Shown here: positions 17,736-49,926 of the stretch, in pieces
How positions within the stretch are numbered: position 1 is the stretch's first letter
Layout: each line of letters starts with the position of its first letter
Assembly: GCF_050920415.1 (NCBI RefSeq)
Contig: NZ_CP169309.1
Reading direction: 5' to 3' (one strand)
DNA length: 64,000 nt
From: Escherichia coli
GTDB lineage: Bacteria; Pseudomonadota; Gammaproteobacteria; Enterobacterales; Enterobacteriaceae
The notes under the pieces: generated by a model
Seen by the model: only the letters and a program-made list of their open reading frames with translations
Told to the model about the DNA's origin: nothing
The model's database searches: none
Made by a program: the position numbers and the translations under genes

Positions 17736-17746
17736 ATTACTGATTG

Positions 17747-20700
17747 TCAGAACGACCAGTTCACACCAGCCACCGCGTTCCACGGGGATTCCACACTGGC
17801 ACCATGGCTATACCCCACCCCGAGATGCCCGCTTAACGAACTGCTGAATGAGGCTTTAATACCTGCCTGGTATATTCCACGTCTGCCCGACAAATCATTG
17901 ACAAAATTACCGTCATTATTCACTTTCACCCGGTTATCATCGACAAATTCTTTGCGCACAGCCGCCTTCAGCCACGGCTCTACTTCCATGCCGTTCCCCA
18001 GACGCATGTTGTAACTCAGCGTTGCGCCCAGTTCACGATATATACTGCGGGTATCGACTGATTTCGATTCCATACCATTGGATAAATGATATTCGGGGTT
18101 GTCAGCGGTTAACCCCGTTAACGATGCATACGGCGTCAGGTTCCAGTTACCATCGGTAAATCGCATCCCGGTTTCAATGTGACCGCCCAGCCCGTTGCTG
18201 CGATAACTGCCGTTGGCGGCTCCACCGCTGCTCATTTTACCGGCTACGTTACTTTCAAAGCGGTTCAGCTTCACGATACCGTCCAGATAGAAACCACTTT
18301 CATGTTCCCAGCTGACATAGCCCCCCAGAGAATAACTGCCCACACTGCCATGTCCTCCACGATCAAAACCGATATGTGAATGGGAATAACCCATAAAAGC
18401 GCCCAGCGTCGCAATCCCCTCAGGAATATCATTACGGCTATCGATCCCCACCGTCATTCCGGTCAGCGTCTGCTCAAACCCGGCACCCGCATCGGTGGTG
18501 ACATTATTACGGGTGTTATACGTCGTCCCCCAGACATTATTGTTGTGTGGACTCGCTTTCATTATGTTCAACCGCTCGCGAATACTGTTTAGCTCAGCAT
18601 CAAAGACCAACGGTAATGTTGCTGCCATATTGAGTACGGCTGCCGTAGAAGGCGTGATGCGTTTCTCCGGGACGGGTGTCGGCGTTGGATCGGGAGTCGG
18701 GTCTGGTTTCGGATCCGGTTTTGGGTCTGGTTTTGGATCCGGTTTCGGATTTGGGTTGGGGTCCGGGTTGGGTTTGACATCATTGGTCAGGTTCCAGTTG
18801 CTGTTGCCGTCGCTTTTCAGGACATACTCATAGGTCCCAAGATCAACGAAACCGCCGGTATTACCCAGCGTAAACGAAGCATCCCCTCCCCCTGTTTTCA
18901 CCAGCGTCATCGCGTCGTCAGACTGAGGGCTGACGCCGGTATCCTGAACAAAGATTTTAAAATTGCCAGTGGCGTTGTTGTTGACGACCAGTTGATCGCC
19001 CCGGGAGCCTGCAACGTTGGTATGCAGGTAGAAATTACCGCTGCCGGAAAGTTCACTGGTGGTCAGCGTATTGTAGATACCGTTAGTTGTGGCAGGCGCT
19101 GCTGTTTGTGCTGATAAATAAACATCACCGTCGTTGAGGAGCAAACTGTTTACTCTATATTCGCAGTTGCTGGTGCCTGCACAGGAATTATTGCTGTTAA
19201 GCCAGACACTGCCCCGGCTGGCAGCCGTCAGGTCGGCAAGCGTCGTATCGACGCCATTTCCGATAGTTAATGTCGCGCTATCGGTAATCCGGACCACCCC
19301 TTCAAGTTTAACTGGCGTAACATTATCCCGTGGCGTCATTAACGACAGGCTTCCTGTCGCGCCACTGACCGATGCATCCGCCAGCGTACCTGCGTAGACG
19401 ATTGCCGTCCCGCCAGCGACCTGTAGATCTTCTGCCCGGGCCAGAGCCTGAAACTCATCTTTTGACCGACCAAGGGTATATTGCCCACCGGAATTAACCT
19501 TTGTGGCGAAGTCCTGACCCAGGTTTTGCATTGCCCCACCGTTGCCAACCGTGGAATCGCGAGCTTCGGTACCTGCTAATACCAATAAATTACCGCCATT
19601 TTCCAGCAGCACATTGGTCGCTAAATTTCCGGCAATGGAAAAGGTGCCGTACTGGTGAGTACCGCTGATTTCAATACCGTTAGCCGTGCTCGTCTGGAGA
19701 GCGGCACCGCTGTTCTGGATGATATCTGTCGCTTTGCCATTATCGTTGACTGTCAGCGTACCGCCTTCATTAATCGTTGTTTTTACTGCCTCACCGTTAG
19801 CCGAAACTGTTTGTATTCCGCCGTCGTTAATCGTTGTCTCAGTCGCCACACCCTCGACGATTTGTTCACCGCCGGTAAGCATCGTGCCAGTCGCAGTGGC
19901 TTTTGTTTTGACGATCTCCCGTCCGCCCGCATTGACCTGTGTTTTGGCGGAAGTGGTGTCTGACTCCACGGTTAACACGCCGCCATTTGCCAGCAGGATA
20001 TTGTTCGCCGCATCCTGCTCGATGCTGAACGCGACGCCATCAGCGCGTGTCCCTGTGACCCGCGTCGCCCTGGTGGTTGCCACCAACGCGCCCTGGCTAC
20101 TCTGCTGTATCCCCGTAGCGCTGCCTTTCTCCCGCACATCGAGTGTGCCGCCGTCATTAAGTACCGAGTTTTCAGCCAGACCGCCCTCATTAACTACCTG
20201 TGAACCGCCATTAATAATGGAACCTTCCGTTGTCCCGTTTGCCATAATTTGTTGTAGGCCAGAGACGATATCGGTATTGATCGCCTTACCATAATTCTGA
20301 ACGGTTTGCGTGCCGCCTTTGATGTGCGTTTTATCTGTTGACCCACCATCAACAATTTGTTCACCACTTTCGATATTTGCCTCAGTGGCTAAACCATATA
20401 CCGTTTGCTTGCCACCTTTGATATTTGCTTTATCAGAAGTGGCACTGGCATATATTGTTTGGGTGCCCGCACTATTGAGTACAGTGCCAACATCTTTTCC
20501 ATAAACATCCATTTTGCCGTTGGCATTAATAATCGTATCAACTGCCCGGGAACCAGTAACGACTGTTAATGAGCCAGCGTTTTCCAGCACTACATTTTTA
20601 GCTTCTGAATTCCTGATGTAGAAAGCATCACCATAACTGTTGGTTCCTTCGATAAGTGTTCCGGAAGTCGTGGAAGCAATTAATGCGCCGCCGGATTGTT

Positions 20701-22438
20701 GCTCAACATGCTTAGCCTCACCACCGTCCTGAACCTCCAGAACGCCACCATTATTAAGTCTGGTGGTATCTGTTTTAGCCTCCTTCTGGACAATCAGCTT
20801 ACCGCCAGCATCAACGGTAGTATTTTTCGCCGTGGTTTTAGCCACTACCGTCAGTTCGCCGGTATTTTCCAGCACAACATAATTAGCCTCCCCTCCGGTA
20901 ATAGTGAAGTGAGAGAGCTTGTTGTATCCTTCAATATCAGTCCCTGCGCCCGTGTTGGCAACTAAAGCACTGCCCGTCTCCTGGTTAACCCCATGTGCGA
21001 TACCACCGGTATAGACAATCAGCGAGCCTCCGGCGCTAATATTGCTGCCAGTTGCCGTACCATCTTTCTCAACAACCTGCCGGCTCCCGGAGGAGATATT
21101 TGTCGTGTCAGCTTTCCCGCCGCTCTTGATATTTTGTGTTCCGCTGTTGATATTGGTTCCCGTGGCAATACCATGATTATTAATATTCTGTGTGCCACCA
21201 TTAATTATGGTATTTGTCGCGTTTCCGGCAACATCCATAACCCCGCCATTATCTATTCGGGTCGCATCAGCTTTAGCATTCGTTAAAACTGACATTGTTC
21301 CTTTATCTTTAATAACCGTCTTGTTTGCCGAACCATATGCGTTTATGTCTAAATGGCCACCGTTTTCCAGCAACACATTGTCTGCCACGTGATTGTGGAT
21401 GGAGAATGCCCCTTCACTATTCGTACCGCTCACCGTCGACCTGTCAGTCATTGCTTTTAAAGCCGCGCCATCGTGCTGGGTAACATTCGTTGCCGTACCC
21501 TCTCTAACATCAAGCACGCCACCGGAATATATTTCAATAACATTCGAGGTGCTCCTGCTATCAACAATTTGCGTCCCACCAGAATAGATCGTGGTAGTGT
21601 GCGCCGTTGACGTGTTTTGCAGCGTCTGCATTCCTCCATTTTTAATGGTGGTTATTTGTGCAGTGCTTGAATCAACATCCTGTCGACCACCATCTATTGT
21701 GGTGTCCAGCGCATGGCTCTTAATTGTTCTTTGGTCACCTCCATTTTTAATGATAGTGTTTTCTACAATACTCGAATCTACATACTGTCGGCCCCCATCT
21801 ATTGTTGTGTTCGTTGCCAGACTTCCTTGTGTGATGTTCTGAGAACCAGATGTATTTATCGTCGTACCGTCAACATGCCCCTGAGCTGTTACTGTTTGTT
21901 TACCACCATCAATGACAGTCCCGTTTGCTCTCCCTCCTTCGACGTATGAATTACCATTCTTAATTATCGTGCCATTGCTGGTACCATCCTTATAAATGTA
22001 CTGATTGCCACTCTCGATTAACGTGCCATTGCTGGTACCACCGTTATAAACTTGCTGATTGCCACTCGCGATTATCGTACCGCTAGAATTCCCACCATTA
22101 TAAATTACCTGTGTACCCCCATGAAGGATTGTATTATTAGCTTGCCCCTGATAATTGTTATGGTTTGCTACATCTTGTTGTCCACCCATTTCAATAATAC
22201 TTCCATTAGACACCCCACCAAATACAGTCTGGTGGCCGTGATTAATGATATGAGTATCATTAGTTGTCCCCCGTTCATCTACTATTTGCTCGCCATCCAC
22301 AGTTTCACCATTTACGATACCAGTAACGATTGATGTGAAAGCAGCCTCTCCAGGCTGGGCATATATCAAGGCAGATATCAATAAGGAAAGTACTGAACGG
22401 CGAAAATAATAGCGACTGGTCCTGTTCATAAATTTCAT
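17747..22438 (-). CDS. AIDA-I-type autotransporter adhesin: beta-helix repeat passenger, Pro-rich linker, C-terminal beta-barrel
   Basis: ORF 17747..22558; likely start at MKFMNRTSRYYFRRSVLSLLISALIYA (22438 or 22429) with GAGG RBS. Dozens of GGxQxV/NGT repeats, PNPDPNPNPKPDPKPDPKPDP linker, C-terminus ending ...NWSF typical of autotransporter barrels. Confidence 0.85.
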   Translation of the reverse strand: MKFMNRTSRYYFRRSVLSLLISALIYAQPGEAAFTSIVTGIVNGETVDGEQIVDERGTTNDTHIINHGHQTVFGGVSNGSIIEMGGQQDVANHNNYQGQANNTILHGGTQVIYNGGNSSGTIIASGNQQVYNGGTSNGTLIESGNQYIYKDGTSNGTIIKNGNSYVEGGRANGTVIDGGKQTVTAQGHVDGTTINTSGSQNITQGSLATNTTIDGGRQYVDSSIVENTIIKNGGDQRTIKSHALDTTIDGGRQDVDSSTAQITTIKNGGMQTLQNTSTAHTTTIYSGGTQIVDSRSTSNVIEIYSGGVLDVREGTATNVTQHDGAALKAMTDRSTVSGTNSEGAFSIHNHVADNVLLENGGHLDINAYGSANKTVIKDKGTMSVLTNAKADATRIDNGGVMDVAGNATNTIINGGTQNINNHGIATGTNINSGTQNIKSGGKADTTNISSGSRQVVEKDGTATGSNISAGGSLIVYTGGIAHGVNQETGSALVANTGAGTDIEGYNKLSHFTITGGEANYVVLENTGELTVVAKTTAKNTTVDAGGKLIVQKEAKTDTTRLNNGGVLEVQDGGEAKHVEQQSGGALIASTTSGTLIEGTNSYGDAFYIRNSEAKNVVLENAGSLTVVTGSRAVDTIINANGKMDVYGKDVGTVLNSAGTQTIYASATSDKANIKGGKQTVYGLATEANIESGEQIVDGGSTDKTHIKGGTQTVQNYGKAINTDIVSGLQQIMANGTTEGSIINGGSQVVNEGGLAENSVLNDGGTLDVREKGSATGIQQSSQGALVATTRATRVTGTRADGVAFSIEQDAANNILLANGGVLTVESDTTSAKTQVNAGGREIVKTKATATGTMLTGGEQIVEGVATETTINDGGIQTVSANGEAVKTTINEGGTLTVNDNGKATDIIQNSGAALQTSTANGIEISGTHQYGTFSIAGNLATNVLLENGGNLLVLAGTEARDSTVGNGGAMQNLGQDFATKVNSGGQYTLGRSKDEFQALARAEDLQVAGGTAIVYAGTLADASVSGATGSLSLMTPRDNVTPVKLEGVVRITDSATLTIGNGVDTTLADLTAASRGSVWLNSNNSCAGTSNCEYRVNSLLLNDGDVYLSAQTAAPATTNGIYNTLTTSELSGSGNFYLHTNVAGSRGDQLVVNNNATGNFKIFVQDTGVSPQSDDAMTLVKTGGGDASFTLGNTGGFVDLGTYEYVLKSDGNSNWNLTNDVKPNPDPNPNPKPDPKPDPKPDPKPDPTPDPTPTPVPEKRITPSTAAVLNMAATLPLVFDAELNSIRERLNIMKASPHNNNVWGTTYNTRNNVTTDAGAGFEQTLTGMTVGIDSRNDIPEGIATLGAFMGYSHSHIGFDRGGHGSVGSYSLGGYVSWEHESGFYLDGIVKLNRFESNVAGKMSSGGAANGSYRSNGLGGHIETGMRFTDGNWNLTPYASLTGLTADNPEYHLSNGMESKSVDTRSIYRELGATLSYNMRLGNGMEVEPWLKAAVRKEFVDDNRVKVNNDGNFVNDLSGRRGIYQAGIKASFSSSLSGHLGVGYSHGASVESPWNAVAGVNWSF
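18668..18779 (-). repeat. Tandem short coding repeat for the (PDPK/PNPD)n linker of the autotransporter
   Basis: Periodic GGATCCGGTTT/GGGTCTGGTTT units on the plus strand. Confidence 0.8.
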
Positions 22439-23032
22439 CCTCTGAAAAGTGAATACTGAGTAGCGGGTAAGCGACCTTAGCTCTGCTGCAACATCGGCCC
22501 ACAGGCACCAGACCAGGGGATTCATCCTTAAGAGACAGCGCAAGTGTATTGTGTTCACCGCTCATCAAAGACATCATGATGAAATGATGATATTCCGCAT
22601 AAGAAAGAGGCATTTTTAGACGCATCGCGCTGAAGTGTGGTTGAATAAAAATCAATCTTTTCAGATAAGACTGTCGTACTCTTATTTTGCGGAAATAAGG
22701 CCGTCGGCAAAGTAAAATGACTCACATAATTGTTTCTGATGAATATCTTCTACTCACATGAATATTACACAATAATATTGATGCATCAGATTATCTTACC
22801 TTTACAACATCACGTTAACAGCCAATGACACTTCTTGAATAAAAATATTGTCAATCAAAGAGTTATTTTTTATTTAAGATTATTCTCATTCAAGTAAAAG
22901 ACATAATTCCTATCATCACAGCCACGCTCATTTTGAATTATCTGAATAATAGCGAGCGTTCTTTAGTTAAGCAGGTCTTAATTGAAGACGAAATTATTGT
23001 GTGTGCAACTTACTTAATACCGGACATCTAAG

Positions 23033-23377
23033 TTGAAGAAAAAAATACTCGCCTTCGGGCTTATCTCAGCATTGCTCTGCTCCGCGCCAGCGATGGCGGA
23101 TATGAATCGCACCACAAAAGGTGCACTACTTGGTGCAGGCGTTGGTTTACTTACTGGCAATGGCGTTAATGGCGTACTGAAAGGTGCAGCTGTTGGCGCT
23201 GGCGTTGGTGCAGTAACAGAAAAAGGCCGCGACGGCAAAAATGCGCGCAAAGGTGCAAAAGTGGGTGCCGCCGTTGGTGCTGTCACTGGCGTTCTGACCG
23301 GCAATGGCCTTGAAGGGGCGATTAAAGGTGCCGTAATTGGCGGTACGGGTGGTGCAATTCTGGGTAAAATGAAATAA
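23033..23377 (+). CDS. ymgG: Glycine-zipper outer-membrane lipoprotein-like YmgG
   Basis: 114-aa ORF with signal peptide and GxxxG-rich repeats. Confidence 0.8.
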
Positions 23378-23386
23378 GGAATGATG

Positions 23387-23716
23387 ATGAAAAAATTTGC
23401 TTTACTGGCGGGTCTGTTTGTTTTCGCACCAATGACCTGGGCGCAGGACTACAATATTAAGAACGGTTTGCCGTCAGAAACCTATATTACTTGCGCAGAA
23501 GCCAACGAAATGGCAAAAACTGACAGCGCACAGGTTGCAGAAATTGTTGCGGTAATGGGTAATGCCAGCGTTGCCAGCCGTGATTTAAAAATTGAGCAAT
23601 CTCCGGAACTGAGCGCCAAAGTGGTAGAAAAACTGAACCAGGTTTGCGCTAAAGACCCGCAAATGCTGTTGATCACGGCAATTGATGACACCATGCGTGC
23701 TATCGGCAAAAAATAA
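23387..23716 (+). CDS. ymgD: Periplasmic protein YmgD
   Basis: MKKFALLAGLFVFAPMTWAQ signal peptide; about 109 aa. Confidence 0.8.
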   Translation: MKKFALLAGLFVFAPMTWAQDYNIKNGLPSETYITCAEANEMAKTDSAQVAEIVAVMGNASVASRDLKIEQSPELSAKVVEKLNQVCAKDPQMLLITAIDDTMRAIGKK

Positions 23717-23730
23717 TATTTCGTCTGTTA

Positions 23731-23760
23731 CCGCGTCGATTGATTCGACGCGGTGGTTGT
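23731..23760 (+). terminator. Hairpin downstream of ymgD
   Basis: CCGCGTCGA-TTGAT-TCGACGCGG stem-loop followed by a T-rich tract. Confidence 0.5.
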
Positions 23761-23891
23761 ATATAGTTCTACAATGAAACATCACACCCGCCAATACGCC
23801 CTCACAACAACAAGCAAAGCAATTTAATCGGCATTAAACCACAAGTACAACAATACTTATTACTATATAGCGGCTATAGCATAAAGAAAGA

Positions 23892-24110
23892 TTAGTGCTG
23901 ATCCCTGTGGCTAACGAGTTTTTCCCTTACTCGATTAACCAGATTGATCGCCAGCCAAACAAGGGCATTCAGCAAATTTATCGTCACAAGCACTTCTCCA
24001 AGCCCAGTACTGGGTTTTGCGATAAGGATGACCAGCAAGGTGATCAGCATAAATGCAATGGAAAAGATGATATAGAGAGTGAAATAATCCAGATTATTAC
24101 TATTGTTCAT
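23892..24110 (-). CDS. ymgF: Inner-membrane division-associated small protein YmgF
   Basis: MNNSNNLDYFTLYIIFSIAFMLITLLVILIA...; 72 aa from internal ATG 24110. Confidence 0.8.
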   Translation of the reverse strand: MNNSNNLDYFTLYIIFSIAFMLITLLVILIAKPSTGLGEVLVTINLLNALVWLAINLVNRVREKLVSHRDQH

Positions 24111-24241
24111 GCTACTAATGGCAATCCTGTCAAAACTTTCAAACAATTATAGCAAACAAAATAATGAACAATAGTAACAAGACGCAACGAGCTAATTAGC
24201 TGTCTATAATTACACCGCACCATGGTCTTAATGATCAATTT

Positions 24242-25765
24242 TTACTCAATCATAACCTTCACCTTCGGTTTAGAAAGGATAATTTTAACCAGGTCGATGT
24301 AGGTTACCGGTTTATAGAAATAATAACCCTGCTGAAATGTGATGTTGTTTTGATTCAGATAATCAAGCTGTTCTTTTGTTTCGACACCTTCAGCGACGAT
24401 ACTGATCGAAAGTTTACGCGCCAGATCCAGTACACAATCCAGAATCCTGGTTGATTCTGGGTCTGCATTGACACGACCAACAAAACTGTGATCAATTTTA
24501 ATATAATCAATATGCAGATCATGCAGATAAGAAAGCCCTGAATAGCCAGTACCAAAATCATCCAGTGCGATGACAAAACCATTTTCATGCAGAATGTTCA
24601 ACCGCTGAACCAGACTTTCATCAACATCTAATGATTCACGCTCGGTCACTTCCAGAACGAGGTTTAAATCGCGGCGGGTAAAACTGTCACGGAAAATTAA
24701 GCACTCGTCGACAAACGTCGGCGAAATAATATGCGAGGCACTAAAATTAATTCCGATATGAAAACCTTCCGGCAATTTACTCGCGATAGTGTTCATCTGT
24801 GTGACAACCTGATTCATCAGACTTTGTGTAAGCGGAACAATTAATCCAGATTTTTCAGCAAGTGGAATAAATGCCGCGGGTGAGATATATTTGCCGTGAG
24901 GTTGTTTCCAGCGGGCTAATACCTCAACTCCCCGCAATGACCCTTCCCGACCATTTACCACAGGTTGGTAAAAAGGGACAATCTCACCATTACTTATGGC
25001 CCGTCGCAGGACCTCTTCAGGCGTTGCGCTTTTATTAAAATACTTATCAAGCAGGTAGGCTGCGGCGCAGGCAATTAACAGAATGAATATCAAAACCCCT
25101 ACGCCATTATCGATAAGTCTGTAGAAGCTAAAGAATGGTGGTGGGTTAAAGATAATAGTGAAATGATATCTTGTGGAGTGAACCTTCTCAGTATAAGGAT
25201 AGTGTCCATTAAGCGTCATCACGTCACCGGTAGGTCCAATAATGTCATCCGCTACGCGTAATGCATACCTTACCCCTTTCAAGGGCACATTAAGCGCTCC
25301 ACGAATATGCTGATCACTTATCGTGACCAAAATACGCGTGTCTGCAAATTGGCTCTGATAGAGCAGGATAGGCAATCTATTGACGGTGTCGATTGCCGGA
25401 GCCAACAGTAAATTACTGTCAGGGAAAGCAGGAATACGAGACAGCAGGACTCGATTCCCCGGCAAGGATGTACACCAGACCATTCCGCGTTTGAGAATGA
25501 TGATTGTGCGCAAGTGAGGTTTCAGAGCTGCTTCAGTGCCAAGCTGATATTGCTCCTCGAGGTCGCATTCCTTCCCGGCAATGTTAACCGCCGCTTGAGT
25601 CGCCTGTGACGCTTCTTCAAGTATGTGATTGATATTGTTGACAGCATATCTCGCTCCCGCCGTATATGCTGCTTTTGCGGAATACCAAAGCTGGATATTC
25701 AAAATAGCGACACCGGTTATAAACAAGCATATCGCAACGAGGATGGGTATGAGTGTATTGCGCAT
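24242..25765 (-). CDS. pdeG: CSS-motif EAL-domain c-di-GMP phosphodiesterase (YcgG/PdeG)
   Basis: 507 aa; N-terminal TM plus periplasmic domain, C-terminal EAL domain. Confidence 0.85.
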   Translation of the reverse strand: MRNTLIPILVAICLFITGVAILNIQLWYSAKAAYTAGARYAVNNINHILEEASQATQAAVNIAGKECDLEEQYQLGTEAALKPHLRTIIILKRGMVWCTSLPGNRVLLSRIPAFPDSNLLLAPAIDTVNRLPILLYQSQFADTRILVTISDQHIRGALNVPLKGVRYALRVADDIIGPTGDVMTLNGHYPYTEKVHSTRYHFTIIFNPPPFFSFYRLIDNGVGVLIFILLIACAAAYLLDKYFNKSATPEEVLRRAISNGEIVPFYQPVVNGREGSLRGVEVLARWKQPHGKYISPAAFIPLAEKSGLIVPLTQSLMNQVVTQMNTIASKLPEGFHIGINFSASHIISPTFVDECLIFRDSFTRRDLNLVLEVTERESLDVDESLVQRLNILHENGFVIALDDFGTGYSGLSYLHDLHIDYIKIDHSFVGRVNADPESTRILDCVLDLARKLSISIVAEGVETKEQLDYLNQNNITFQQGYYFYKPVTYIDLVKIILSKPKVKVMIE

Positions 25766-26097
25766 TCGCTTGTCCCGGACTAAGGATTTTAATACATAAA
25801 ATGATGTTCATTCGCTCGTGCTGGCGTCTAAAGAGAGCATGGTAGAGAGCATAAGAAATATCCACGCCGAAGATAAAATTTTCTCCATCGTCATCTAACC
25901 TATTAATTATTGTGCTTAATGTGGGTAAAATTAAGCAAATCTGGCAGGATGTCAGACGTCAAGAATGGAGAACAATAGTTCTCCATTCTTGTTTAAACCC
26001 TGATATTCCGGATATATTAAGAAACATAACGACTTAAATTATTACTTTGCAACAGAATATGATACAGCTGATGGTAATTTTAAAACCTTACTCAGTT

Positions 26098-26346
26098 CTA
26101 AGAGAGCTCGGCTTCCCTGTCATTAATAATGACATCCGTTAGTGTTGTCTTATGCAATTCAATGTACTGCAAAATTTGCAGGTAGAGATCAGAAAGAATC
26201 ACACTCGTTTCATCTTTTAAACGCAAGCGTAAAGCCTGATCAATAATATGACTATTAACATACCCATGCGCCATGAACACCTCCCTCTCGAGATTTTTAA
26301 ATAAAGCACATTGAAAAATAAATCTCTCGGGAATTGAATTATTCAT
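26098..26346 (-). CDS. ymgC: Small regulatory protein YmgC
   Basis: 82-aa ORF in the ycgZ-ymgABC operon position. Confidence 0.8.
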   Translation of the reverse strand: MNNSIPERFIFQCALFKNLEREVFMAHGYVNSHIIDQALRLRLKDETSVILSDLYLQILQYIELHKTTLTDVIINDREAELS

Positions 26347-26466
26347 GTCAGCCTCGTAAAAATATCAATCCAATAGAATTATGCTGTGTATAGTCTAAGC
26401 GACAGACAAAAATAAGATGAATGAGTTTTCTATAAACTTATGCTAGTTATACTAAACAATAAAAAG

Positions 26467-26733
26467 TCACATATCATCAGCTGTGTATCGCAACACGATT
26501 TCCAGTGTTTTTCTAATCACATCAGCTTTGAGAATATCATTCGTTGTTTCCAGGGAGTGTATCAGACTTAAGATAATATTTTTATTATTAACATTATCTC
26601 CTGAAAGCATTAAATTGGTCACCGCCTGCCCTAATACAGCAGACTCTTCTTCTAACAAATTCCCCGAACTGCGAAAGTAACTTGATAACGCCTTATCAGT
26701 TATTGCGTTATGAATAGTAGTATCTTCAAGCAT
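26467..26733 (-). CDS. ariR: Connector protein AriR/YmgB (biofilm and acid-resistance regulator)
   Basis: 88-aa ORF; operon context. Confidence 0.85.
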
Positions 26734-26761
26734 GGTAACCTCTCATCTTACTTATGAAATT

Positions 26762-27034
26762 TTAATGTATTCTGTTTATTTTCTTACCATTGAATATACT
26801 TTTATTGTCAGCTATTGCTGCTCTTCTGTTAGGCCCTCCTGTATCACAGTTGCTAAAATCACGAATTATGCTATCAATTAAATCTCGTCGGAAGGCATTT
26901 TGTTCAACAGATTTCATTACGAGTAATTGCTTAATAAGAGTCTGCAACGAAAAATTTATCTTCATGCGTAATATCTGGAGCACCGCCTGGCCAGTAATTT
27001 CATGTTTTATACTTTCATTATCAGATGTCTTCAT
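26762..27034 (-). CDS. ymgA: Small protein YmgA
   Basis: 90-aa ORF; operon context. Confidence 0.8.
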   Translation of the reverse strand: MKTSDNESIKHEITGQAVLQILRMKINFSLQTLIKQLLVMKSVEQNAFRRDLIDSIIRDFSNCDTGGPNRRAAIADNKSIFNGKKINRIH

Positions 27035-27076
27035 AACGACTTCATAGTTAATCTGTCAAATAATCAGGCTGTCACA

Positions 27077-27313
27077 TTATTCAAAAAGCAACCCAATTAG
27101 TGAATTGTAGTGTTTCTGTTCCTCTTCCCCTGTCGCTTGCTCCAGTCGACAAAGAAGTTTGGTACAAAGCGACTTTCGACTCAGATTACGTCCATCTTTC
27201 AAAATTTCAGTCACAATTTCCCCGAGGGTTTCCTGCTGAGTAGGCAAGTTAGCTTTTGCAAAGTAACGAGTAATTGCCCCCGCAGAATCTGAAATCACTG
27301 AATTTTGCTGCAT
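27077..27313 (-). CDS. ycgZ: Small protein YcgZ
   Basis: 78-aa ORF, first gene of the ycgZ-ymgABC operon, divergent from bluF. Confidence 0.8.
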   Translation of the reverse strand: MQQNSVISDSAGAITRYFAKANLPTQQETLGEIVTEILKDGRNLSRKSLCTKLLCRLEQATGEEEQKHYNSLIGLLFE

Positions 27314-27367
27314 GCTACGCCTCTATTAAAAATGTTAAACGTTGTTAAGTGCAGTAACAATAGCAAA

Positions 27368-27389
27368 CTTGTACGAAATATGTGTACAG
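27368..27389. promoter_or_regulatory. TGTAC-N9-GTACA inverted repeat in the ycgZ promoter region (candidate BluR operator)
   Basis: CTTGTACGAAATATGTGTACAG lies 55-75 nt upstream of the ycgZ start. Confidence 0.45.
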
Positions 27390-27626
27390 AATGATAAATT
27401 ATTTTTTTGCAATTAGTGCTAACACCTATAAAACAATGAGATACGTAAAAATTATTTGCATCATTTGACTGACAACCTATACAAGATTCCAAACGAACTC
27501 ATCTTCAAATTTTTCCATCTTTCATCAATGTAAATAAATAGTTATGTTTTAGTATTAAAAGCAAGACACCAGAAGATATGTCTGTTACCGTCATACTCTC
27601 GCCTCGCCCATTACCCTGGACTATTA

Positions 27627-28838
27627 ATGCTTACTACCCTTATTTATCGTAGCCATATACGTGACGACGAACCTGTCAAAAAAATCGAAGAAATGGTTTC
27701 GATAGCAAATCGCAGAAACATGCGGTCTGACGTAACAGGGATTTTACTGTTTAATGGTTCACATTTTTTTCAACTTCTTGAAGGTCCGGAAGAACAGGTT
27801 CAAATGATTTATCGGGCCATATGCCAGGATCCACGGCACTATAATATCGTTGAACTGCTGTGCGATTACGCACCTGCTCGCCGTTTTGGCAAAGCAGGAA
27901 TGGAATTATTTGATTTGCGCCTCCACGAGCGCAATGACGTTTTACAGGCCGTACTCGACAAAGGCACCTCAAAATTTCAGCTAACTTATGATGACAGAGC
28001 GCTGCAATTTTTTCGTACTTTTGTTCTTTCAACTGAAAAATCAACCTATTTCGAGATTCCTGCCGAAGACTCCTGGCGTTTTATCGCTGACGGACCTGAT
28101 AAAGAACTTGATTCCTGTACCCTTTCACCAAATATAAACGACCACTTTGCCTTTCATCCTATTGTCGATCCTTTATCGCGGCGGATAATCGCTTTTGAAG
28201 CAATTGTTAAAGATAGGGAAGACAGCCCATCAGCCAGAGTGGTTGGGCAAAGCAATGACGGGGAAATCTACACAGCGGATCTCAAAAGTAAGGCACTTGC
28301 ATTCGCGATGGCACACGCACTTGAGCTCGGTGATAAAATGATTTCAATCAATCTATTACCTATGACCCTGGTTAACGAGCCTGACGCGGTCTCTTTTTTA
28401 CTTGATGAAATAAAGGCCAATGGTTTGGTGCCTGAACAAATTATCGTGGAATTTACTGAAAGTGAGGTCATATCTCGGTTTGATGAATTTGCCGATGCTG
28501 TTAAATCACTTAAGGCTACCGGTATGAGTGTAGCAATTGACCATTTTGGCACAGGTTTTGCCGGTTTGTTACTCCTGTCACGCTTCCAGCCTGACAGAAT
28601 TAAAATCAGTCAGGAATTGATTACCAATGTTCATAAAAGCGGGCCTCGGCAGGCAATTATTCAGGCGATCATAAAATGCTGTACATCACTTGAAATTCAA
28701 GTCTCTGCTATGGGTGTGGCAACACCAGAAGAGTGGATGTGGCTTGAATCTGCAGGAATTGAGATGTTTCAGGGAGATCTGTTTGCCAAAGCTAAATTGA
28801 ATGGTATCCCTTCAGTTGCGTGGCCGGAGAAAAAATAA
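27627..28838 (+). CDS. bluF: Blue-light sensor BLUF-EAL protein (YcgF/BluF)
   Basis: 403 aa; N-terminal BLUF motif (YRSHIRDD...LLFNGSHFFQLLEG) and degenerate EAL C-terminal domain. Confidence 0.9.
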   Translation: MLTTLIYRSHIRDDEPVKKIEEMVSIANRRNMRSDVTGILLFNGSHFFQLLEGPEEQVQMIYRAICQDPRHYNIVELLCDYAPARRFGKAGMELFDLRLHERNDVLQAVLDKGTSKFQLTYDDRALQFFRTFVLSTEKSTYFEIPAEDSWRFIADGPDKELDSCTLSPNINDHFAFHPIVDPLSRRIIAFEAIVKDREDSPSARVVGQSNDGEIYTADLKSKALAFAMAHALELGDKMISINLLPMTLVNEPDAVSFLLDEIKANGLVPEQIIVEFTESEVISRFDEFADAVKSLKATGMSVAIDHFGTGFAGLLLLSRFQPDRIKISQELITNVHKSGPRQAIIQAIIKCCTSLEIQVSAMGVATPEEWMWLESAGIEMFQGDLFAKAKLNGIPSVAWPEKK

Positions 28839-28957
28839 TTTTCAGCACATTATTTCACATGATTTCTGGAAATCATCGTGAAAATGAATACGTTATGTTT
28901 TAATTTAATCCACATTAAAAATAATGTTTTATCCAATTTAGCTGAAATCTTATTTAT

Positions 28958-28991
28958 ACTTTGTACAATTTTAGCGTATATTGTACAAAGT
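28958..28991. promoter_or_regulatory. Perfect 11-bp inverted repeat ACTTTGTACAA-N12-TTGTACAAAGT upstream of bluR (candidate MerR-type operator)
   Basis: Seen directly; a third GTGTACAG lies at 29003..29010; about 50 nt upstream of the bluR ATG. Confidence 0.5.
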
Positions 28992-29042
28992 ATTATTGGG
29001 TCGTGTACAGGCGACGGAGATTTATGAGCGCAAGGAGGAATT

Positions 29043-29774
29043 GTGGCTTATTACAGCATTGGTGATGTTGCTGAACGTTGCGGGATTAATCCTGTCACTC
29101 TCCGGGCTTGGCAACGCCGCTACGGTTTGTTAAAACCACAGCGCAGTGAAGGCGGACACCGACTCTTTGATGAAGAAGACATACAACGCATCGAAGAGAT
29201 CAAGCGTTGGATAAGTAATGGCGTCCCTGTAGGCAAAGTTAAAGCATTACTGGAAACCACCAGCCAGGATACGGAAGATGACTGGAGCCGCCTGCAAGAA
29301 GAGATGATGTCAATTCTTCGTATGGCTAATCCTGCCAAACTACGCGCGAGAATTATTTCACTGGGTCGAGAGTACCCGGTAGATCAATTGATTAATCATG
29401 TTTACCTTCCTGTTCGTCAGCGTCTCGTGCTTGATCACAACACCTCCCGCATTATGAGCAGTATATTTGACGGCGCATTAATTGAATACGCAGCAGCCTC
29501 ACTTTTCGAAATGCGCCGTAAGCCCGGTAAAGAAGCCATTCTAATGGCGTGGAATGTTGAAGAGAGAGCACGATTGTGGCTGGAAGCATGGCGTTTATCA
29601 TTGTCAGGATGGCATATTTCTGTCCTTGCTGATCCCATTGAATCGCCGCGCCCGGAACTGTTCCCGACGCAAACATTGATTGTCTGGACTGGCATGGCAC
29701 CAACGAGAAGGCAAAACGAACTATTACAACACTGGGGTGAGCAAGGTTATAACGTCATCTTTCATGCCCCCTAA
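29043..29774 (+). CDS. bluR: MerR-family repressor BluR (YcgE)
   Basis: 243 aa; N-terminal MerR HTH ([30 protein letters not shown]). Confidence 0.9.
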
Positions 29775-29994
29775 TTTCACCTTTATCCCGCCCCTTAGAC
29801 AGAATCTTATAATCTGAACCCACAACAGCGTTTGTACCGGAGCTGATCCGTTGCAAAATGCTCACCGGGAGAATTCAGGTAATCCCCCTTTCACACTTTG
29901 TACATATCACAGCCAAAGGACAGACCAGCTTGAAGTGAGAAAACCGATCGTGCACACTACGCACTCTCACAACTAACAAAAGGTTATTATCCTG

Positions 29995-30399
29995 ATGGAT
30001 CAGGTCGTTGTTTTTCAAAAGATGTTTGAAAAAGTGAGAAAAGAGCAAAACTTCTCCTGGTTTTATTCAGAATTAAAACATCACCGTATTGCACATTACA
30101 TTTATTATCTGGCTACGGATAACATCAGAATTATTACTCACGATGAAACAGTTTTGTTATTAAGAGGAAACCGTAGCCTGTTAAAAGTCAGTACAACCAA
30201 AAATCCAGAAAAAATTAAAGAGGCGGCATTGCTTCATATTTCTGGGAACTCTACATTTTGGGAGTATTGTACAACACTGGCAAGTGCTGGCGTTTTCCGC
30301 TGGGTAACCGATGTTAATAACAATAAACGCGGCTACTACGCTATTGATAATACGCTGTTGTATGTTGAAGATGTGGAAAATAACAAGCCATTAATCTAG
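29995..30399 (+). CDS. ycgX: DUF1398-family protein YcgX
   Basis: 134-aa ORF in conserved position. Confidence 0.8.
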   Translation: MDQVVVFQKMFEKVRKEQNFSWFYSELKHHRIAHYIYYLATDNIRIITHDETVLLLRGNRSLLKVSTTKNPEKIKEAALLHISGNSTFWEYCTTLASAGVFRWVTDVNNNKRGYYAIDNTLLYVEDVENNKPLI

Positions 30400-30594
30400 C
30401 AAAGTTTTAACACATAAGAGAACTATCATAATTCAGTAAAATAACAAAAAAGAGGTCTTTCTATGACTTATCAGAACTCCCTTTTTATTGTTATCCATAA
30501 TTGTTCAGCCGACCAATACTATAAATCTGACATTTGACATGCCTCCTTTGCCGTTCTGATACGTTACTTGTATTACAGTTATCAAACCCACAAA

Positions 30595-30662
30595 TACAAC
30601 GGGCGTGTTATATGCCCGTTCAATACTTAATAGGTATAGCGTTAACATATTCTTGATAGCAT
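30595..30662. repeat. Diverged duplicate of the icd 3' end plus terminator hairpin (icdC-like remnant); left boundary of the islet
   Basis: CAACGGGCGTGTTATATGCCCGTT (26/27 identical to the hairpin at 36911..36934) followed by TTAACATATTCTTGATAGCAT, which matches the last codons of icd. Confidence 0.65.
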
Positions 30663-31229
30663 GTATTGCATACCTCCAGCCTTAGAGTTATCTCCGGCTA
30701 ACTCCACCAAACATGGCTGCACACAGCCAGATAAGAACGCTTGCGCGCATCTGGATATCATACCGCTGCTGGAACTGTTTCTTAATCATCCTACCTTATT
30801 AGACCTATTCGATACTGGCCATTATGAAGGACGCAAAGTAAGCGCTTTTTATGCGTTTTTGCTGAGTTATCATCACGTTACCTTAATATTATCAGGAACG
30901 AGTTAACGCTGCTCATAACGGTCAAACCGATACTATAAAGCCCAATAATTGAAACCTTTTCATCATGTCAGGAAGATAGTCATCCTTATGATCTTTATAT
31001 AAAAAAGCCAACCATGGGGTTGGCAAAGTGGCACAAACCAGCATAAAAGCTATGCTTTGTTTACAAATCTTCTTTGAATTAAATATATATCGTCCTGACT
31101 AAACAGAACTAAAACGGAATGAATTATTTAATCATGTTACTAAATTTCATTTTGTTTAGCCTCTGTTGAGATCCCTTGTTTTAAATTTCATTTAGATAAA
31201 ATTCTTAATTAAATCCTTGGGAGTCAATT

Positions 31230-31490
31230 ATGTCTATGCAAAGTCAAGGAATGAACTTTGAAATGAACCTATACGCATATTTGAATAAATATGATAGTCG
31301 GCTTTCAGAAGAAAAACTTGCAATTGATAAGGCAGTTAGAGATTTATATCTTTGCAACGAACACGTGGATAACAAGAGCATTATACTGAAATTGCTCTCA
31401 TTTTTATCATCTGCTGATGACATTGTTGAAAAAGATATTATCAGGAATGCTTTGGAAGTGGTGCTTCTTTTTACATTAGACGATATTTAA
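31230..31490 (+). CDS. AriR/YmgB-family small protein (paralog)
   Basis: C-terminal half HVDNKSIILKLLSFLSSADDIVEKDIIRNALEVVLLFTLDDI aligns with AriR at 26467..26733 ([42 protein letters not shown]). Confidence 0.7.
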   Translation: MSMQSQGMNFEMNLYAYLNKYDSRLSEEKLAIDKAVRDLYLCNEHVDNKSIILKLLSFLSSADDIVEKDIIRNALEVVLLFTLDDI

Positions 31491-32061: not shown

Positions 32062-32793
32062 TGGGGGTTATTTAACCTTCCCTATATGCTATAGATAAAT
32101 CTACCAAAAACTGCCCCTTCGTAGAGGGGCGCTATGATTTTGTTTTATTTGAAGGCATGGTGCTGAATGTATTCGTTGAATCCAGATTCAACACCTGAAG
32201 CTGCACTTAACCCATAATACTTGTTTCTGGTTCCTCTACCGAGTGGTCAAACAATGATATGTATGTGACGTCAGAGTTTATTTTTTTAGTGTTTAATGCT
32301 ATTAATTTAACGTAGTTACCTATCTTTTTTCTACCTTCTGAACTAACCTTAGGTTTCAACGTAACCGGCAGGAGGGGCTATCCCCAATCTTAAATTTTGC
32401 TGCCCGATTTGCTCAAGCCAAAGTTTTAATTTTACAACCTATAAACCTGAGTTAAATCAACCTCATGGTGCTGTCTGTTCCCGCTGTGGAACAAGACTCA
32501 CTGCAACATCTTGCATTCCTAAACTTCGCAGAAGGCGATGGGCAAAAACTGTACTGTAATGTTATTTCGATGTCTCTTATGGTAAATAGGAGGCATCGAG
32601 GCTAAGTGAGCAGCCTGCTTGCTTCTCAATCCTGGATACTATCAGCATTCACGCAGATGAAATGATGATATTTCGCGTAAGAAAGAGGCATTTTTTTATC
32701 AACTTCACATCGGAGATGGTAATAATCCTATGGGTCCAGTCCATATGAGGGGGCAACATACTATAAAATTCACAATCATAAATTAACTATATA

Positions 32794-34269
32794 TCAAGAA
32801 CGCCAAAAAAATCCTGAAAATAGTATAATAACAGGGTAAATTTCAAGTCGACCAAGAATCATAGCAATACACATGAGATATTTTGCAATATCATTAAGAA
32901 CACCGAATGAGGATGCGGTAGCCCCAAAACCCAGCCCCATATTATTAATGCATGCAGCGACTGTCGCAAATGATGTAAGGAAATCATATCCCATACCATT
33001 TAGCACCAGTATAAAAAACACTGTAAAGAAAGTATAAAGAAAAAAGAAACTCCATACAGACCTCATTACGCGGTCTGTAACAATCTTCCCTCCTACATTT
33101 ACACTAAGCAATGCTCTGGGATGAGAAAGCTGATTTATTTCGTGTTTACTTTGTTTAAAAAGTATAAGAAATCTAAGTGATTTAATTCCGCCGCACGTTG
33201 AGCCTATACATCCCCCAAAAAAACTTGACAGCAGCAAAAAAACTATCGTATGTGTGGGCCAGTTTGAATAATCCTGCGTAGCTAAACCATTATCAGTGAG
33301 CATGGAGCTAGCAAGAAAAAACGAATGAACAACACTTCCAGTTAAGTCATACATACCTATATGCCAGACCTGGAAAGAGGTAACAATGATAACACCTGAA
33401 GCTATTAACAAAAAGAAACGAAGTTCAACATCTCTGAGTAAGGGTTTTATTGTTTTCCTGCTTATAACAACATACCAAAGAGTGAAGTTGAAAGCCGATA
33501 ACAGAGAAAAAGAGCCCGCCACCAGTTCAATCAAATAATTATTGAAATAGCCGATACTCTCACTATGAGTTGAAAAACCGCCAAGAGAAACTGTAGAAAG
33601 TCCATGACAAATAGCATCAAACAAAGGCATTCCTGCAAGTCGATAACAAACAATACAAGCAATGCCTAATAAAGAATAAGTTATCCAAAGTGTCCGCGAC
33701 GTATCAGCCAAGCGTGGAGTCAGTTTGTCATCCTTAAATGGCCCTGGCATTTCTGACTGATAAAGTTTTGCACCACCAATACCCAATAATGGCAACACAG
33801 CAACTGCCAGAACAATAACCCCTAAACCGCCTATAAAATTTAATTGTGACCGGTAGAACAAATATGCCCGAGATAATGAACTGACATCATCAATTACTGT
33901 TGCTCCTGTTGTTGTTATTCCGGAAACCCCTTCAAACAGCGCGTCAGCAAACGTTAAATTAAGCTCTGAATCAATCCATAATGGAAATGCGCTAATAATA
34001 GAAAATAAAATCCAAAACATTACAATTATAATAAACCCATCACGGGTGCGTAATTGAATGCCAGATTTTTTAGTGGTATACCACGCTCCGCCACCAATAC
34101 AAAAAAATATAACAAAAGTAATAAAAAAAACGAACAAGCTTTTTTCTTTATAAAACAATGCTACAACCATTGGTGGTAACATTGAAAGACTATAGAGCCA
34201 GACCAAGAACCCACACATATGAGTTACAACTCTTACATGAGATGTATTCATATCCAAATGTTCTTTCAA
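32794..34269 (-). CDS. TrkH/TrkG-family potassium uptake membrane protein
   Basis: 491 aa, polytopic, with repeated selectivity-filter-like GxGxxxGG segments (GGLGVIVLAV..., STCGGIKS...). Confidence 0.75.
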   Translation of the reverse strand: MKEHLDMNTSHVRVVTHMCGFLVWLYSLSMLPPMVVALFYKEKSLFVFFITFVIFFCIGGGAWYTTKKSGIQLRTRDGFIIIVMFWILFSIISAFPLWIDSELNLTFADALFEGVSGITTTGATVIDDVSSLSRAYLFYRSQLNFIGGLGVIVLAVAVLPLLGIGGAKLYQSEMPGPFKDDKLTPRLADTSRTLWITYSLLGIACIVCYRLAGMPLFDAICHGLSTVSLGGFSTHSESIGYFNNYLIELVAGSFSLLSAFNFTLWYVVISRKTIKPLLRDVELRFFLLIASGVIIVTSFQVWHIGMYDLTGSVVHSFFLASSMLTDNGLATQDYSNWPTHTIVFLLLSSFFGGCIGSTCGGIKSLRFLILFKQSKHEINQLSHPRALLSVNVGGKIVTDRVMRSVWSFFFLYTFFTVFFILVLNGMGYDFLTSFATVAACINNMGLGFGATASSFGVLNDIAKYLMCIAMILGRLEIYPVIILFSGFFWRS

Positions 34270-35204
34270 TTATAACCACCTTACTGCAATGTCATGATTA
34301 TACTGTATAAATTTTAACTCTTCTTAGATCTTACTTCACTGGTCCTTATGAAACAATCAGCAAAATGAATCTTATTATAACACTGTTCGGTTATGTATTG
34401 TTGAGCCTTCCCGCTGGGCCTGCATCATTACAAGTCGCTCCCTATGGGGCTTTGTCGAATAAATAATTTTTCGGTAAGTATCCCCCTGAGCAGGTTGTAT
34501 CTTCAGGCAGTATGAACACTTTCTGGCATACCTACCTTCGTCATTATGTTCAGCGTATGCACCATGACCAAAGCCTCTGCAACCGGCCTATCATAATCTA
34601 GCAGCATCAGAGAACCTCAGAATAACTGTTTTACCCTGTTCATTGCCGTTTCCGCTATTGAGCGACGATTGTAATCTTTTGTCCATTTTCACCGGGAATT
34701 ACCCTCGGTCAATCGCTGATACGCGACTGCACAGTTACGGTCGGCATACTCACCGGGCCAGTAACCCGCTCCTTTTTGGGGTGGGATGAGCGCGCTGATT
34801 TTCACACGGCGCAGCTGCTCGTAACAGAGCCGAGAGGCGTAAACTCCGTCTGCTGCTGTCCTGATTTTTTGATGGGTTTGCCGGATTAATCCGGCTACAC
34901 CTCTACATCCGTTACGCTGAATGCTGAGGTCGCCCTTGGGAAGAAGGCATTGCTGACTTATACCAATCCGAAATCACCTCCTCGAGCAACCAGACAGGGA
35001 GGGGCCTCGGTTGATAAGAGCTCTGTTATTGATGTGCCAGTTGGTGATTCTAACTTTTGCTTTGTAACGGGACGAGCCGTGTTGGCAGATGATGTGTGGT
35101 CTGATCCTTAAACTCAGTAAAAGTACGATTTATTCAAAAAAGCCCCTCCACTATGATTTCGATTTAAGGGGCTGATGATTATGTAACGCGAATTTACCGG
35201 ATCC

Positions 35205-36590
<1,386 letters not shown>

Positions 36591-36908
36591 TCAGGGGGGT
36601 TGATATTCCGGATCGTGCCGTGTTTGCCCACGGCTCCCCCTGGAGAGCTGCAGACCTGTTTATTTAACTCGCACAGCGCCGGGGCCTGTCAGCAAACAGG
36701 GAGCATAACCGTCGTGCCATTAAACGCCAGACGGGAGATCATTATTATTTTATTAATACAGATCCGTTGCATTCCGGTCTTTACCGCAGTTTAAAAGAAA
36801 AGAGAATAGGGACTTAGGCAGTAGAGCAGTCATTGGACAGACCACACTACCCCAAACTAGCAGGGGAGTTTTGATAAAATTTTGATAACCGTTAGCAGGC
36901 TAACAAAA

Positions 36909-49894: not shown

Positions 49895-49926
49895 CTCTCC
49901 CCGACAATTCCAATTGTCGGGGAGAG
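49895..49926. other. Near-perfect 15-bp-arm palindrome between potB and the phage tfa-like gene
   Basis: CTCTCCCCGACAATT-CC-AATTGTCGGGGAGAG; no flanking T-run. Confidence 0.5.

What the first reader, a model, noticed from the sequence alone, without database searches (positions are those of the whole stretch)
22578..22617. 40-bp element repeated at two distant accessory loci, each encoding the start of a small ORF (MPLSYA-E/K-YHHFI) on the minus strand
GATGAAATGATGATATT(C/T)CGC(A/G)TAAGAAAGAGGCATTTTT occurs at 22578..22617, in the leader region of the autotransporter, and at 32656..32695, downstream of the TrkH-like gene, with 38/40 identity; flanks are unrelated. On the minus strand both copies start with ATG and encode MPLSYA(E/K)YHHFI. 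This could be a small-protein start, a protein-binding site, or an end remnant of a mobile element.
Basis: seen in the sequence. Interest (0 to 1): 0.55.

Follow-up and report, generated by a model that had tools for sequence, protein, structure and literature searches.

The report
Orphan scrap of an autotransporter leader
The 40-base repeat is real. One copy is an ordinary part of the upstream region of a large E. coli adhesin (autotransporter) gene, and the other is most likely a dead 40-base leftover of that region stranded in a decayed prophage island, not a small gene or a mobile element.

Summary
The repeat is confirmed: 22578-22617 and 32656-32695, 38/40 identical, same orientation, none expected by chance, flanks unrelated.

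**Copy 1** is not a free-standing element. It lies inside the ~380-bp 5' flank of a 5-kb autotransporter cassette (window 17741-22810). E. coli carries this cassette at two loci, ycgI/ymgJ and ypjA, and about 5,290 of 5,426 complete genomes hold the sequence, at a median of two places per genome. Its ATG starts a 39-codon ORF that RefSeq labels "ATPase". That ORF has no longer homologue. Its start codon varies (ATG, GTG, ATA), it has no Shine-Dalgarno sequence, and frameshifted variants exist. Substitutions fall 15/12/8 on codon positions 1/2/3, so it shows no coding constraint.

**Copy 2** exists in only 18 of 5,426 genomes. It sits in a 4.8-kb island (32099-36906) between iraM and icd that holds a Rac-like trkG, a lambdoid nin-region scrap and an IS scrap. 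No promoter, terminator, Rfam match or stable RNA fold was found at either copy. The 40-mer never occurs outside the cassette elsewhere.

The best reading is a non-functional relic or ectopic patch of the cassette leader. Interest is low.

The parts
22578..22617 (-). Copy 1 of the 40-mer. It is an internal part of the 5' flank (leader) of the autotransporter cassette.
   Evidence: It is collinear with the homologous flank of K-12 ypjA and of the K-12 ymgJ/ycgI locus.
32656..32695 (-). Copy 2 of the 40-mer. It is an orphan fragment with unrelated flanks, 98 nt beyond the trkG stop codon.
   Evidence: The locus is present in only 18 of 5,426 E. coli genomes.
17747..22429 (-). Intact AIDA-repeat (YpjA/EhaD-like) autotransporter gene at the locus that is the ycgI pseudogene in K-12.
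   Evidence: PGAP annotation of the 100%-identical genome NZ_CP169399.1. It is 90.5% identical over 5,079 nt to K-12-type ypjA loci.
22430..22810 (-). 5' flank of the cassette, shared between the ycgI/ymgJ locus and the ypjA locus. The element lies 193-232 nt inside its upstream edge.
   Evidence: It is 88% identical over 414 nt to K-12 L004 8698-9111.
22497..22613 (-). The 39-codon ORF equivalent (MPLSYAEYHHFI...), annotated by PGAP as an 'ATPase' pseudogene. In this lineage the stop is lost and the ORF runs on to 22305.
   Evidence: No coding-type substitution pattern.
22555..22725 (-). Local 56-codon ORF covering the ymgJ region. The K-12 YmgJ frame (C-terminus KKCLFLMRDIIISS, encoded by the element) is broken here by a stop and a frameshift.
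32626..32691 (-). It is unrelated to copy 1 after codon 12.
   Evidence: Translation.
32649..32759 (-). 36-codon ORF that reads copy 2 in the K-12 YmgJ frame (...KKCLFLTRNIIISSA*). It has no Shine-Dalgarno sequence and no family match, and is probably a chance ORF.
32099..36906 (.). Lineage-specific 4.8-kb island between iraM and the icd terminator. It holds a Rac-like trkG, a lambdoid nin-region scrap (32503-32607), an IS/transposase scrap (34503-34892) and a 458-aa phage-like ORF (35205-36581). Copy 2 lies inside it.
   Evidence: Boundaries relative to K-12 are. Its distribution in 18 genomes is. The nin scrap is and the PHROG hits.
32794..34251 (-). trkG. Homology to Rac trkG (84%) runs on to about 32745, which is 49 nt past the stop.

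Best explanation
Copy 1 is simply the resident upstream (leader) DNA of a YpjA/EhaD-type autotransporter cassette. E. coli carries this cassette at two loci, and in this lineage the leader stretch of the two copies has been homogenised by gene conversion. Its ATG-led small ORFs are by-products of that non-coding leader. They include the 39-codon 'ATPase' ORF and, in K-12-like strains, the C-terminus of YmgJ in another frame.

Copy 2 is a non-functional 40-bp orphan of the same leader, embedded in a decayed lambdoid (Rac/e14-like) prophage island between icd and iraM. The most likely route (inferred) starts from a prophage that ended '...trkG ... tfa-pin-leader-autotransporter' facing iraM. Two deletions then removed everything but 40 bp of the leader.

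What is shown: the homology relations, the distribution, the island's prophage debris and the lack of coding or regulatory signatures. What is inferred: the deletion history. The stated confidence of 0.7 covers this specific relic route; a non-functional orphan by either route (this one or the ectopic-patch rival) is about 0.9.
For: - **Cassette membership of copy 1.** The sequence is collinear with the K-12 ypjA flank at 88% over 414 nt. It is present in 5,287 of 5,426 genomes, at a median of two places per genome. Every viral-contig and genome-collection hit is a ypjA or ycgI locus.
- **Rarity of copy 2.** Copy 2 occurs in only 18 of 5,426 genomes, all carrying the same island.
- **The island is prophage debris.** It holds a Rac-like trkG, a scrap matching the nin region of an Stx1 prophage, an IS scrap and an ORF with PHROG hits.
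- **The cassette is linked to prophage ends.** In K-12, the pinH invertase relic abuts the ypjA leader. In L019 the order is J-lom-stf-tfa relic-pin relic-leader-autotransporter, and the pin/leader junction is homologous to the K-12 junction.
- **Geometry.** The order trkG then element, and their shared strand, match what is expected for a prophage right end facing iraM, as e14's pinE end does in K-12.
- **No function-type signal.** There is no promoter or terminator consensus and no Rfam match. RNA folding z-scores are +1.0 and +1.7. There are no Pfam or NCBIfam hits.
- **No coding constraint.** Codon positions 1/2/3 carry 15/12/8 mutations and the start codon is variable.
- **Not specially conserved.** The element is 93% identical on average, the rest of the leader 94-95%, and orthologous comparisons go both ways.
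- **Concerted evolution.** The leader is 188/188 identical between the two cassettes of this lineage, while the DNA upstream is 156/196.
Against: - Only 40 bp survive, and no other cassette, pin or tfa scrap was found in the island. The two-deletion history therefore needs breakpoints 40 bp apart and is not directly documented.
- No genome with an intermediate state was found in 5,426 complete genomes, IMG/VR or JGI metagenomes.
- The prophage-borne arrangement of L019 occurs in one draft assembly only. No complete genome holds at least 80% of it. It could equally be a prophage that recombined with the chromosomal pinH relic.
- Copy 2 shows no variation among 5 genomes of the lineage. Only about 1 change was expected, so this neither supports nor excludes constraint.
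- No expression data could be consulted.
Confidence: 0.7

Rival explanations
1. Copy 2 is a non-functional ectopic patch. The 40 bp were copied from one of the resident cassettes, by template switching or illegitimate recombination, into the junction formed when the trkG island was assembled. No third cassette ever existed there.
For: Copy 2 is closest (38/40) to this lineage's own two leader copies, which are identical to each other in the element. No other cassette relic lies in the island. The upstream boundary falls in an A-run that could serve as microhomology. An indel polymorphism sits 2 nt from the element edge.
Against: Insertions of short filler DNA from a locus 10 kb away are rare in enterobacteria. 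The two substitutions, and the fact that copy 2 is fixed in all 18 genomes, show it is not recent. The matching order and orientation with trkG would then be coincidence.
Confidence: 0.2
2. The 40-mer is a functional cis module kept in both places. It could be the translation-initiation region of a short regulatory or leader ORF (MPLSYA...), or the binding site of a regulator or sRNA that controls the autotransporter.
For: The ATG is preceded by an A-rich tract in both copies. The 39-codon length is kept in most E. coli. Between paralogues the leader is more similar than the DNA upstream of it. The element is AT-rich with ATGAT repeats that loosely recall Fur-type hexamers; this resemblance is from memory and was not scored.
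Against: The start codon is ATG, GTG or ATA, and there is no Shine-Dalgarno sequence. Substitutions on codon positions 1/2/3 number 15/12/8, and both frameshifted and stop-loss variants exist. Copy 2 precedes no gene and faces the 3' end of iraM. At the ymgJ locus the leader is less conserved than the upstream DNA between orthologues. The high similarity between paralogues is explained by gene conversion, with 188/188 identity in this lineage. There is no promoter consensus.
Confidence: 0.08
3. The 40-mer is the terminal remnant, or the att or target-site duplication, of a mobile element (IS, MITE, REP or integrative island), and the two direct copies bracket the 10-kb segment between them.
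For: The copies are direct repeats 10,078 bp apart. The region shows other insertion scars, including the duplicated icd terminator hairpin 30592-30620 / 36906-36934 and IS scraps.
Against: The bracketed segment runs from ymgI to iraM, the same genes that lie at this locus in K-12, and has no integrase. Copy 1 is collinear on both sides with the ypjA flank, so it is not a junction. The element lies about 200 bp inside the cassette edge. It is never found outside the cassette in about 5,400 genomes, 100,044 species representatives, IMG/VR, phage or plasmid collections. There are no inverted repeats.
Confidence: 0.02

Closest known systems
5' flank of the E. coli ypjA (EhaD-type) autotransporter and its paralogue at the ymgJ-ycgI locus
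   Same: Copy 1 is collinear with it at 88-92% identity. It contains the 3' end of ymgJ and the RefSeq 39-aa hypothetical or 'ATPase' ORF.
   Different: In this lineage the autotransporter at the ycgI locus is intact, the YmgJ frame is broken, and the 39-codon ORF has lost its stop. Copy 2 shares only 40 bp with this flank.
Gene and prophage relics such as pinH, icdC and the ycgI pseudogene in K-12
   Same: They are short surviving pieces of once longer units, left by deletion inside decaying prophage or island DNA, with sharp homology boundaries and no function.
   Different: Copy 2 is much shorter (40 bp) and non-coding. Its parent unit at that site is inferred, not observed.
Dispersed short repeats (REP/BIME, IS ends, MITEs)
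   Same: Short sequence repeated at distant intergenic sites.
   Different: There are only two or three copies per genome. All but one sit at a fixed position inside the same cassette. The element has no palindromic or inverted-repeat structure and is not spread beyond E. coli.
Small proteins annotated in E. coli K-12 (YmgJ, 61 aa, b4594)
   Same: In K-12 the element encodes the last 14 residues of YmgJ (KKCLFLMRDIIISS*). The copy-2 36-codon ORF ends ...KKCLFLTRNIIISSA* in the same frame.
   Different: The rest of the copy-2 ORF is unrelated and gets no Pfam or NCBIfam match. The YmgJ frame is interrupted in window copy 1 and at the ypjA locus.

Membership tests
Translated small-protein gene under selection | Conserved start codon with a ribosome-binding site | tested here: not met
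   The start codon is ATG in most sequences, GTG in L002 and L019, and ATA in L026. No GGAG-like motif lies 5-12 nt upstream in any copy.
Translated small-protein gene under selection | Substitutions concentrated at third codon positions, with reading frame and length kept | tested here: not met
   In 14 distinct leaders, codon positions 1/2/3 carry 15/12/8 mutations. Frameshifted and truncated variants exist, and the stop is lost in this lineage. The copy-2 ORF shares only 12 codons.
Translated small-protein gene under selection | Experimental evidence of translation | not testable with these tools
   The one initiation-site table held is cut off early; the part read lists coordinates of only about 17-33 kb, so the absence of entries is uninformative.
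ATPase (the RefSeq/PGAP product name) | Homology to a full-length ATPase or a nucleotide-binding domain | tested here: not met
   All 25 homologues among 5.8 billion proteins are 36-104 aa and there is no long relative. There is no NCBIfam hit. The name is an annotation artefact.
IS / MITE / REP dispersed repeat | Many copies in varied genomic contexts | tested here: not met
   The median is 2 places per genome and the maximum is 3. All are at the ymgJ/ycgI or ypjA cassette, apart from this orphan.
IS / MITE / REP dispersed repeat | Terminal inverted repeats or palindromic structure, and target-site duplication | tested here: not met
   The repeat finder reported no inverted-repeat pair involving the element. 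The RNA fold is no better than shuffled sequence.
att sites of an integrative element | Direct repeats bracket an accessory segment that carries an integrase | tested here: not met
   The bracketed 10 kb runs from ymgI to iraM, the genes that K-12 also carries at this locus, and has no integrase. Copy 1 is not a junction.
YpjA/EhaD autotransporter cassette 5' flank | Collinear homology on both sides, extending into the autotransporter gene | tested here: met
   This is met for copy 1. Copy 2 shares the 40-42 bp only, and its flanks are unrelated, so it is an orphan fragment and not a cassette.
YmgJ family (Pfam PF28592) | Full-length similarity to YmgJ | tested here: not met
   The copy-2 36-aa ORF has no Pfam hit even at E of 10 or less, though I did not check that the Pfam library used includes this recent family. 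The window copy-1 YmgJ frame carries a stop and a frameshift.
Known non-coding RNA (Rfam) | Covariance-model match | tested here: not met
   There is no match at either copy in 22000-33200 at E of 1 or less.

The most novel reading that the evidence does not exclude
The first 40 nt of the autotransporter leader could be a self-contained functional module. It might be the initiation region of a short regulatory upstream ORF, or an operator for a regulator of YpjA-type adhesins. In that case the copy beyond trkG is retained because it still recruits ribosomes or that regulator.
Probability: 0.06. Interest if true: 0.4.

Novelty: already known. Interest (0 to 1): 0.1.

Why it matters
It matters little biologically. 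The result removes a candidate small gene or regulatory site, and it shows that the RefSeq "ATPase" label on this 39-codon ORF is an artefact. As a side product it documents three things:
- YpjA-type autotransporter cassettes sit next to prophage invertase relics.
- The leader regions of the two cassettes evolve in concert in this lineage.
- The icd-iraM interval is a recurrent landing and decay site for prophage DNA.

If the small residual chance of function were real, it would point to a leader-ORF or operator control of a silent adhesin family.

Tried and rejected
- **Full-length "ATPase" parent gene.** Searched 5.8 billion proteins and found only ORFs of 36-104 aa.
- **Dispersed repeat.** Genome representatives gave 2 hits, both E. 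coli DNA in contaminated or mis-binned contigs. IMG/VR gave 10 hits, all ypjA loci beside CP4-57. The phage collection gave none. The 'plasmid' hits all show the ymgJ/ypjA-locus annotation, and three of the records are chromosome-sized.
- **Longer homology around copy 2.** Alignment with shuffles found none. Distant BLAST of 32062-32900 found only trkG and a nin-region scrap.
- **Search for a donor or intermediate.** I searched the right-flank 23-mer in IMG/VR and metagenomes, the copy-2 variant in metagenomes, and a looser variant in IMG/VR. All returned nothing.
- **Structured RNA or known sRNA.** No support.
- **Promoter or terminator in the element.** No consensus match.
- **Constraint on copy 2 within the lineage.** There were 0 changes in 40 bp among 5 genomes, but only about 1 was expected, so this is uninformative.
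- **Leader under purifying selection.** Rejected. Orthologous comparisons go both ways, and the similarity between paralogues is explained by conversion.
- **Literature.** Nothing useful on ymgJ or ypjA leader function. Hemm 2008 is not held. The ribosome-profiling supplement is truncated.

Full report
**1. Observation**

The 40-mer occurs exactly twice in the window, at 22578-22617 and 32656-32695. Both copies are on the same strand and 38/40 positions match. Shuffled sequence gave no matches. The sequence on either side is unrelated: local alignments of 60-300 nt flanks score no better than shuffles.

**2. Context**

The window is an E. coli chromosome segment, 100% identical to strain MFDS1022581 over the stretches compared. 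The gene order is as follows.
- minCDE
- an intact 1,560-aa AIDA-repeat autotransporter (17747-22429, minus strand), at the site of the K-12 ycgI pseudogene
- the ymgJ/ymgI region
- ymgG, ymgD, ymgF and pdeG, then on through bluF, bluR and ycgX to iraM (31738-32061)
- copy 2
- trkG (32794-34251, minus strand)
- a transposase scrap, a 458-aa ORF, and icd

Compared with K-12, the stretch 32099-36906 is an extra island inserted between iraM and the icd terminator.

**3. What copy 1 is**

The segment 22400-23050 is found in 5,382 of 5,426 complete E. coli genomes. A 56-nt probe centred on the element finds a median of two places per genome. In K-12 the two places are the ymgJ-ycgI locus and the 5' flank of ypjA, the latter matching at 88% over 414 nt.

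The paralogous block spans the whole autotransporter plus about 380 bp upstream (window 17741-22810, 90.5% identical over 5,079 nt to K-12-type ypjA loci). The element lies 193-232 bp inside the upstream edge of this cassette and 149-188 nt before the autotransporter ATG.

Three minus-strand reading frames cross the element.
- **The 39-codon ORF.** RefSeq calls it "ATPase" or a hypothetical protein.
- **The K-12 YmgJ frame.** Its last 14 residues, KKCLFLMRDIIISS*, are encoded by the element.
- **A third frame.** The local 56-codon ORF uses this one.

The name "ATPase" has no basis. All 25 database relatives are 36-104 aa, and no family model matches.

**4. Is the small ORF a gene?**

I compared fourteen distinct leader sequences from both loci and several lineages.
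- The start codon is ATG, GTG or ATA.
- There is no Shine-Dalgarno motif.
- This lineage has lost the stop (CGA in place of TGA).
- Protein clusters include frameshifted forms.
- Inferred mutations fall 15, 12 and 8 on codon positions 1, 2 and 3. That is no third-position excess in this frame, and no clear periodicity in any frame.

The YmgJ frame is interrupted in window copy 1 and at the ypjA locus.

**5. Is the element a conserved non-coding module?**

Mean pairwise identity is 93% for the element and 94-95% for the rest of the leader. The DNA upstream is 88%.

That contrast comes largely from concerted evolution. In this lineage the 188 nt from the element to the autotransporter ATG are 188/188 identical between the ycgI-locus and ypjA-locus cassettes. 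The adjacent upstream DNA is only 156/196 identical, and the block that runs on into the first 400 nt of the coding region is 83.5% identical overall.

Between orthologues at the ymgJ locus the leader is actually less conserved than the upstream DNA. No sigma-70 promoter or terminator consensus falls in either copy. There is no Rfam match. The RNA folds are no more stable than shuffles, with z-scores of +1.0 and +1.7.

**6. What copy 2 is**

The copy-2 locus exists in only 18 of 5,426 genomes. These are the same genomes that match copy 1 at 99% or better, and the rest of the island has the same distribution.

The island is prophage debris.
- trkG is 84% identical to the Rac prophage trkG, with homology ending 49 nt past the stop.
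- The stretch 32503-32607 matches an intergenic piece of the nin region of an Stx1 lambdoid prophage.
- There is a transposase pseudogene.
- The 458-aa ORF hits only PHROG families of unknown function.

The autotransporter cassette is itself tied to prophage ends. In K-12 the invertase relic pinH abuts the ypjA leader. In one draft genome (L019) the order is J-lom-stf-tfa relic-pin relic-leader-autotransporter, with a pin/leader junction homologous to the K-12 one.

On the minus strand the order trkG then element, facing iraM, is the order and orientation expected for the right end of such a prophage. In K-12 the right end of e14 (pinE-mcrA) likewise faces iraM.

I therefore read copy 2 as a 40-bp survivor of a third, prophage-borne cassette. 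This history is inferred. No other cassette scrap lies in the island, and no intermediate genome was found. The L019 arrangement is absent from all complete genomes.

A simple ectopic patch copied from a resident cassette is the main alternative. Both readings make copy 2 non-functional. Within the lineage copy 2 shows no variation among five genomes, but only about one change was expected.

**7. Rejected readings**

The element is not an IS, MITE or REP repeat.
- It never occurs outside the cassette apart from this orphan.
- It has no inverted repeats.
- Outside E. coli genomes it was found only in two contigs that are themselves E. coli DNA, and none of the 100,044 species representatives matched the exact pattern. 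The phage collection held no match at all.

The two copies are also not att sites. The 10 kb between them holds the genes that K-12 carries at this locus and no integrase, and copy 1 is not a junction.

**8. Verdict**

The repeat is real, but its explanation is ordinary. One copy is resident leader DNA of a duplicated adhesin cassette. The other is a relic or patch in a decayed prophage island. About 6-8% is left for a functional initiation region or operator. Interest is low.

Noticed in passing
window 30592-30620 and 36906-36934: The icd terminator hairpin (AAAYACAACGGGCGTGTTATAYGCCCGTT) is present twice as a direct repeat, 27/29 identical. The two copies bracket the ymgB-like gene, iraM and the trkG island. 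K-12 shows the same duplication around its shorter iraM segment. This suggests that iraM arrived by insertion at the icd terminator.
   Followed up: partly
window 22430-22617 versus L031 (ypjA locus of strain N96, same lineage): The 188-nt leader is 188/188 identical between the two paralogous autotransporter cassettes of this lineage. The upstream DNA is 156/196 identical, and the block running into the first 400 nt of coding sequence is 83.5% identical overall. This is a short gene-conversion tract and shows concerted evolution of the leaders.
   Followed up: yes
window 22497-22613 (minus strand): RefSeq/PGAP names this 39-codon ORF 'ATPase', and here 'ATPase, incomplete'. All database relatives are 36-104 aa and no ATPase homology exists. 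It is a propagated misannotation.
   Followed up: yes
window 17747-22429, and 23716-23892: The autotransporter at the K-12 ycgI pseudogene locus is intact here (1,560 aa, 90.5% identical to ypjA). The ycgH autotransporter gene that lies between ymgD and ymgF in K-12-like strains is absent.
   Followed up: partly
L019 7262-8185 and K-12 L004 8728-9305: The ypjA-type cassette abuts a truncated pin (DNA invertase) gene. In one draft genome this follows the J-lom-stf-tfa genes of a lambdoid prophage. The adhesin cassette therefore looks like prophage-end cargo, or an insertion into a prophage invertase gene.
   Followed up: partly
window 22555-22759: The K-12 small protein gene ymgJ (61 aa, now Pfam PF28592) is not intact in this lineage, where it has an in-frame stop and a frameshift. 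It is also not intact upstream of ypjA. This raises doubt that YmgJ is a conserved functional protein.
   Followed up: partly
window 35205-36581 (minus strand): A 458-aa ORF in the island has an internal 474-bp-spaced repeat (35922-35970 / 36396-36444, 73% identical) and only weak hits to PHROG families of unknown function. It is found in just the 18 genomes of this lineage.
   Followed up: partly
window about 49900-57100: Lambdoid prophage tail genes are present: a 1,232-aa gpJ-like ORF at 53362-57060, lom at 52695-53294, and tail fibre and assembly genes at 49954-52636. They are 86-92% identical to the prophage in L019.
   Followed up: no
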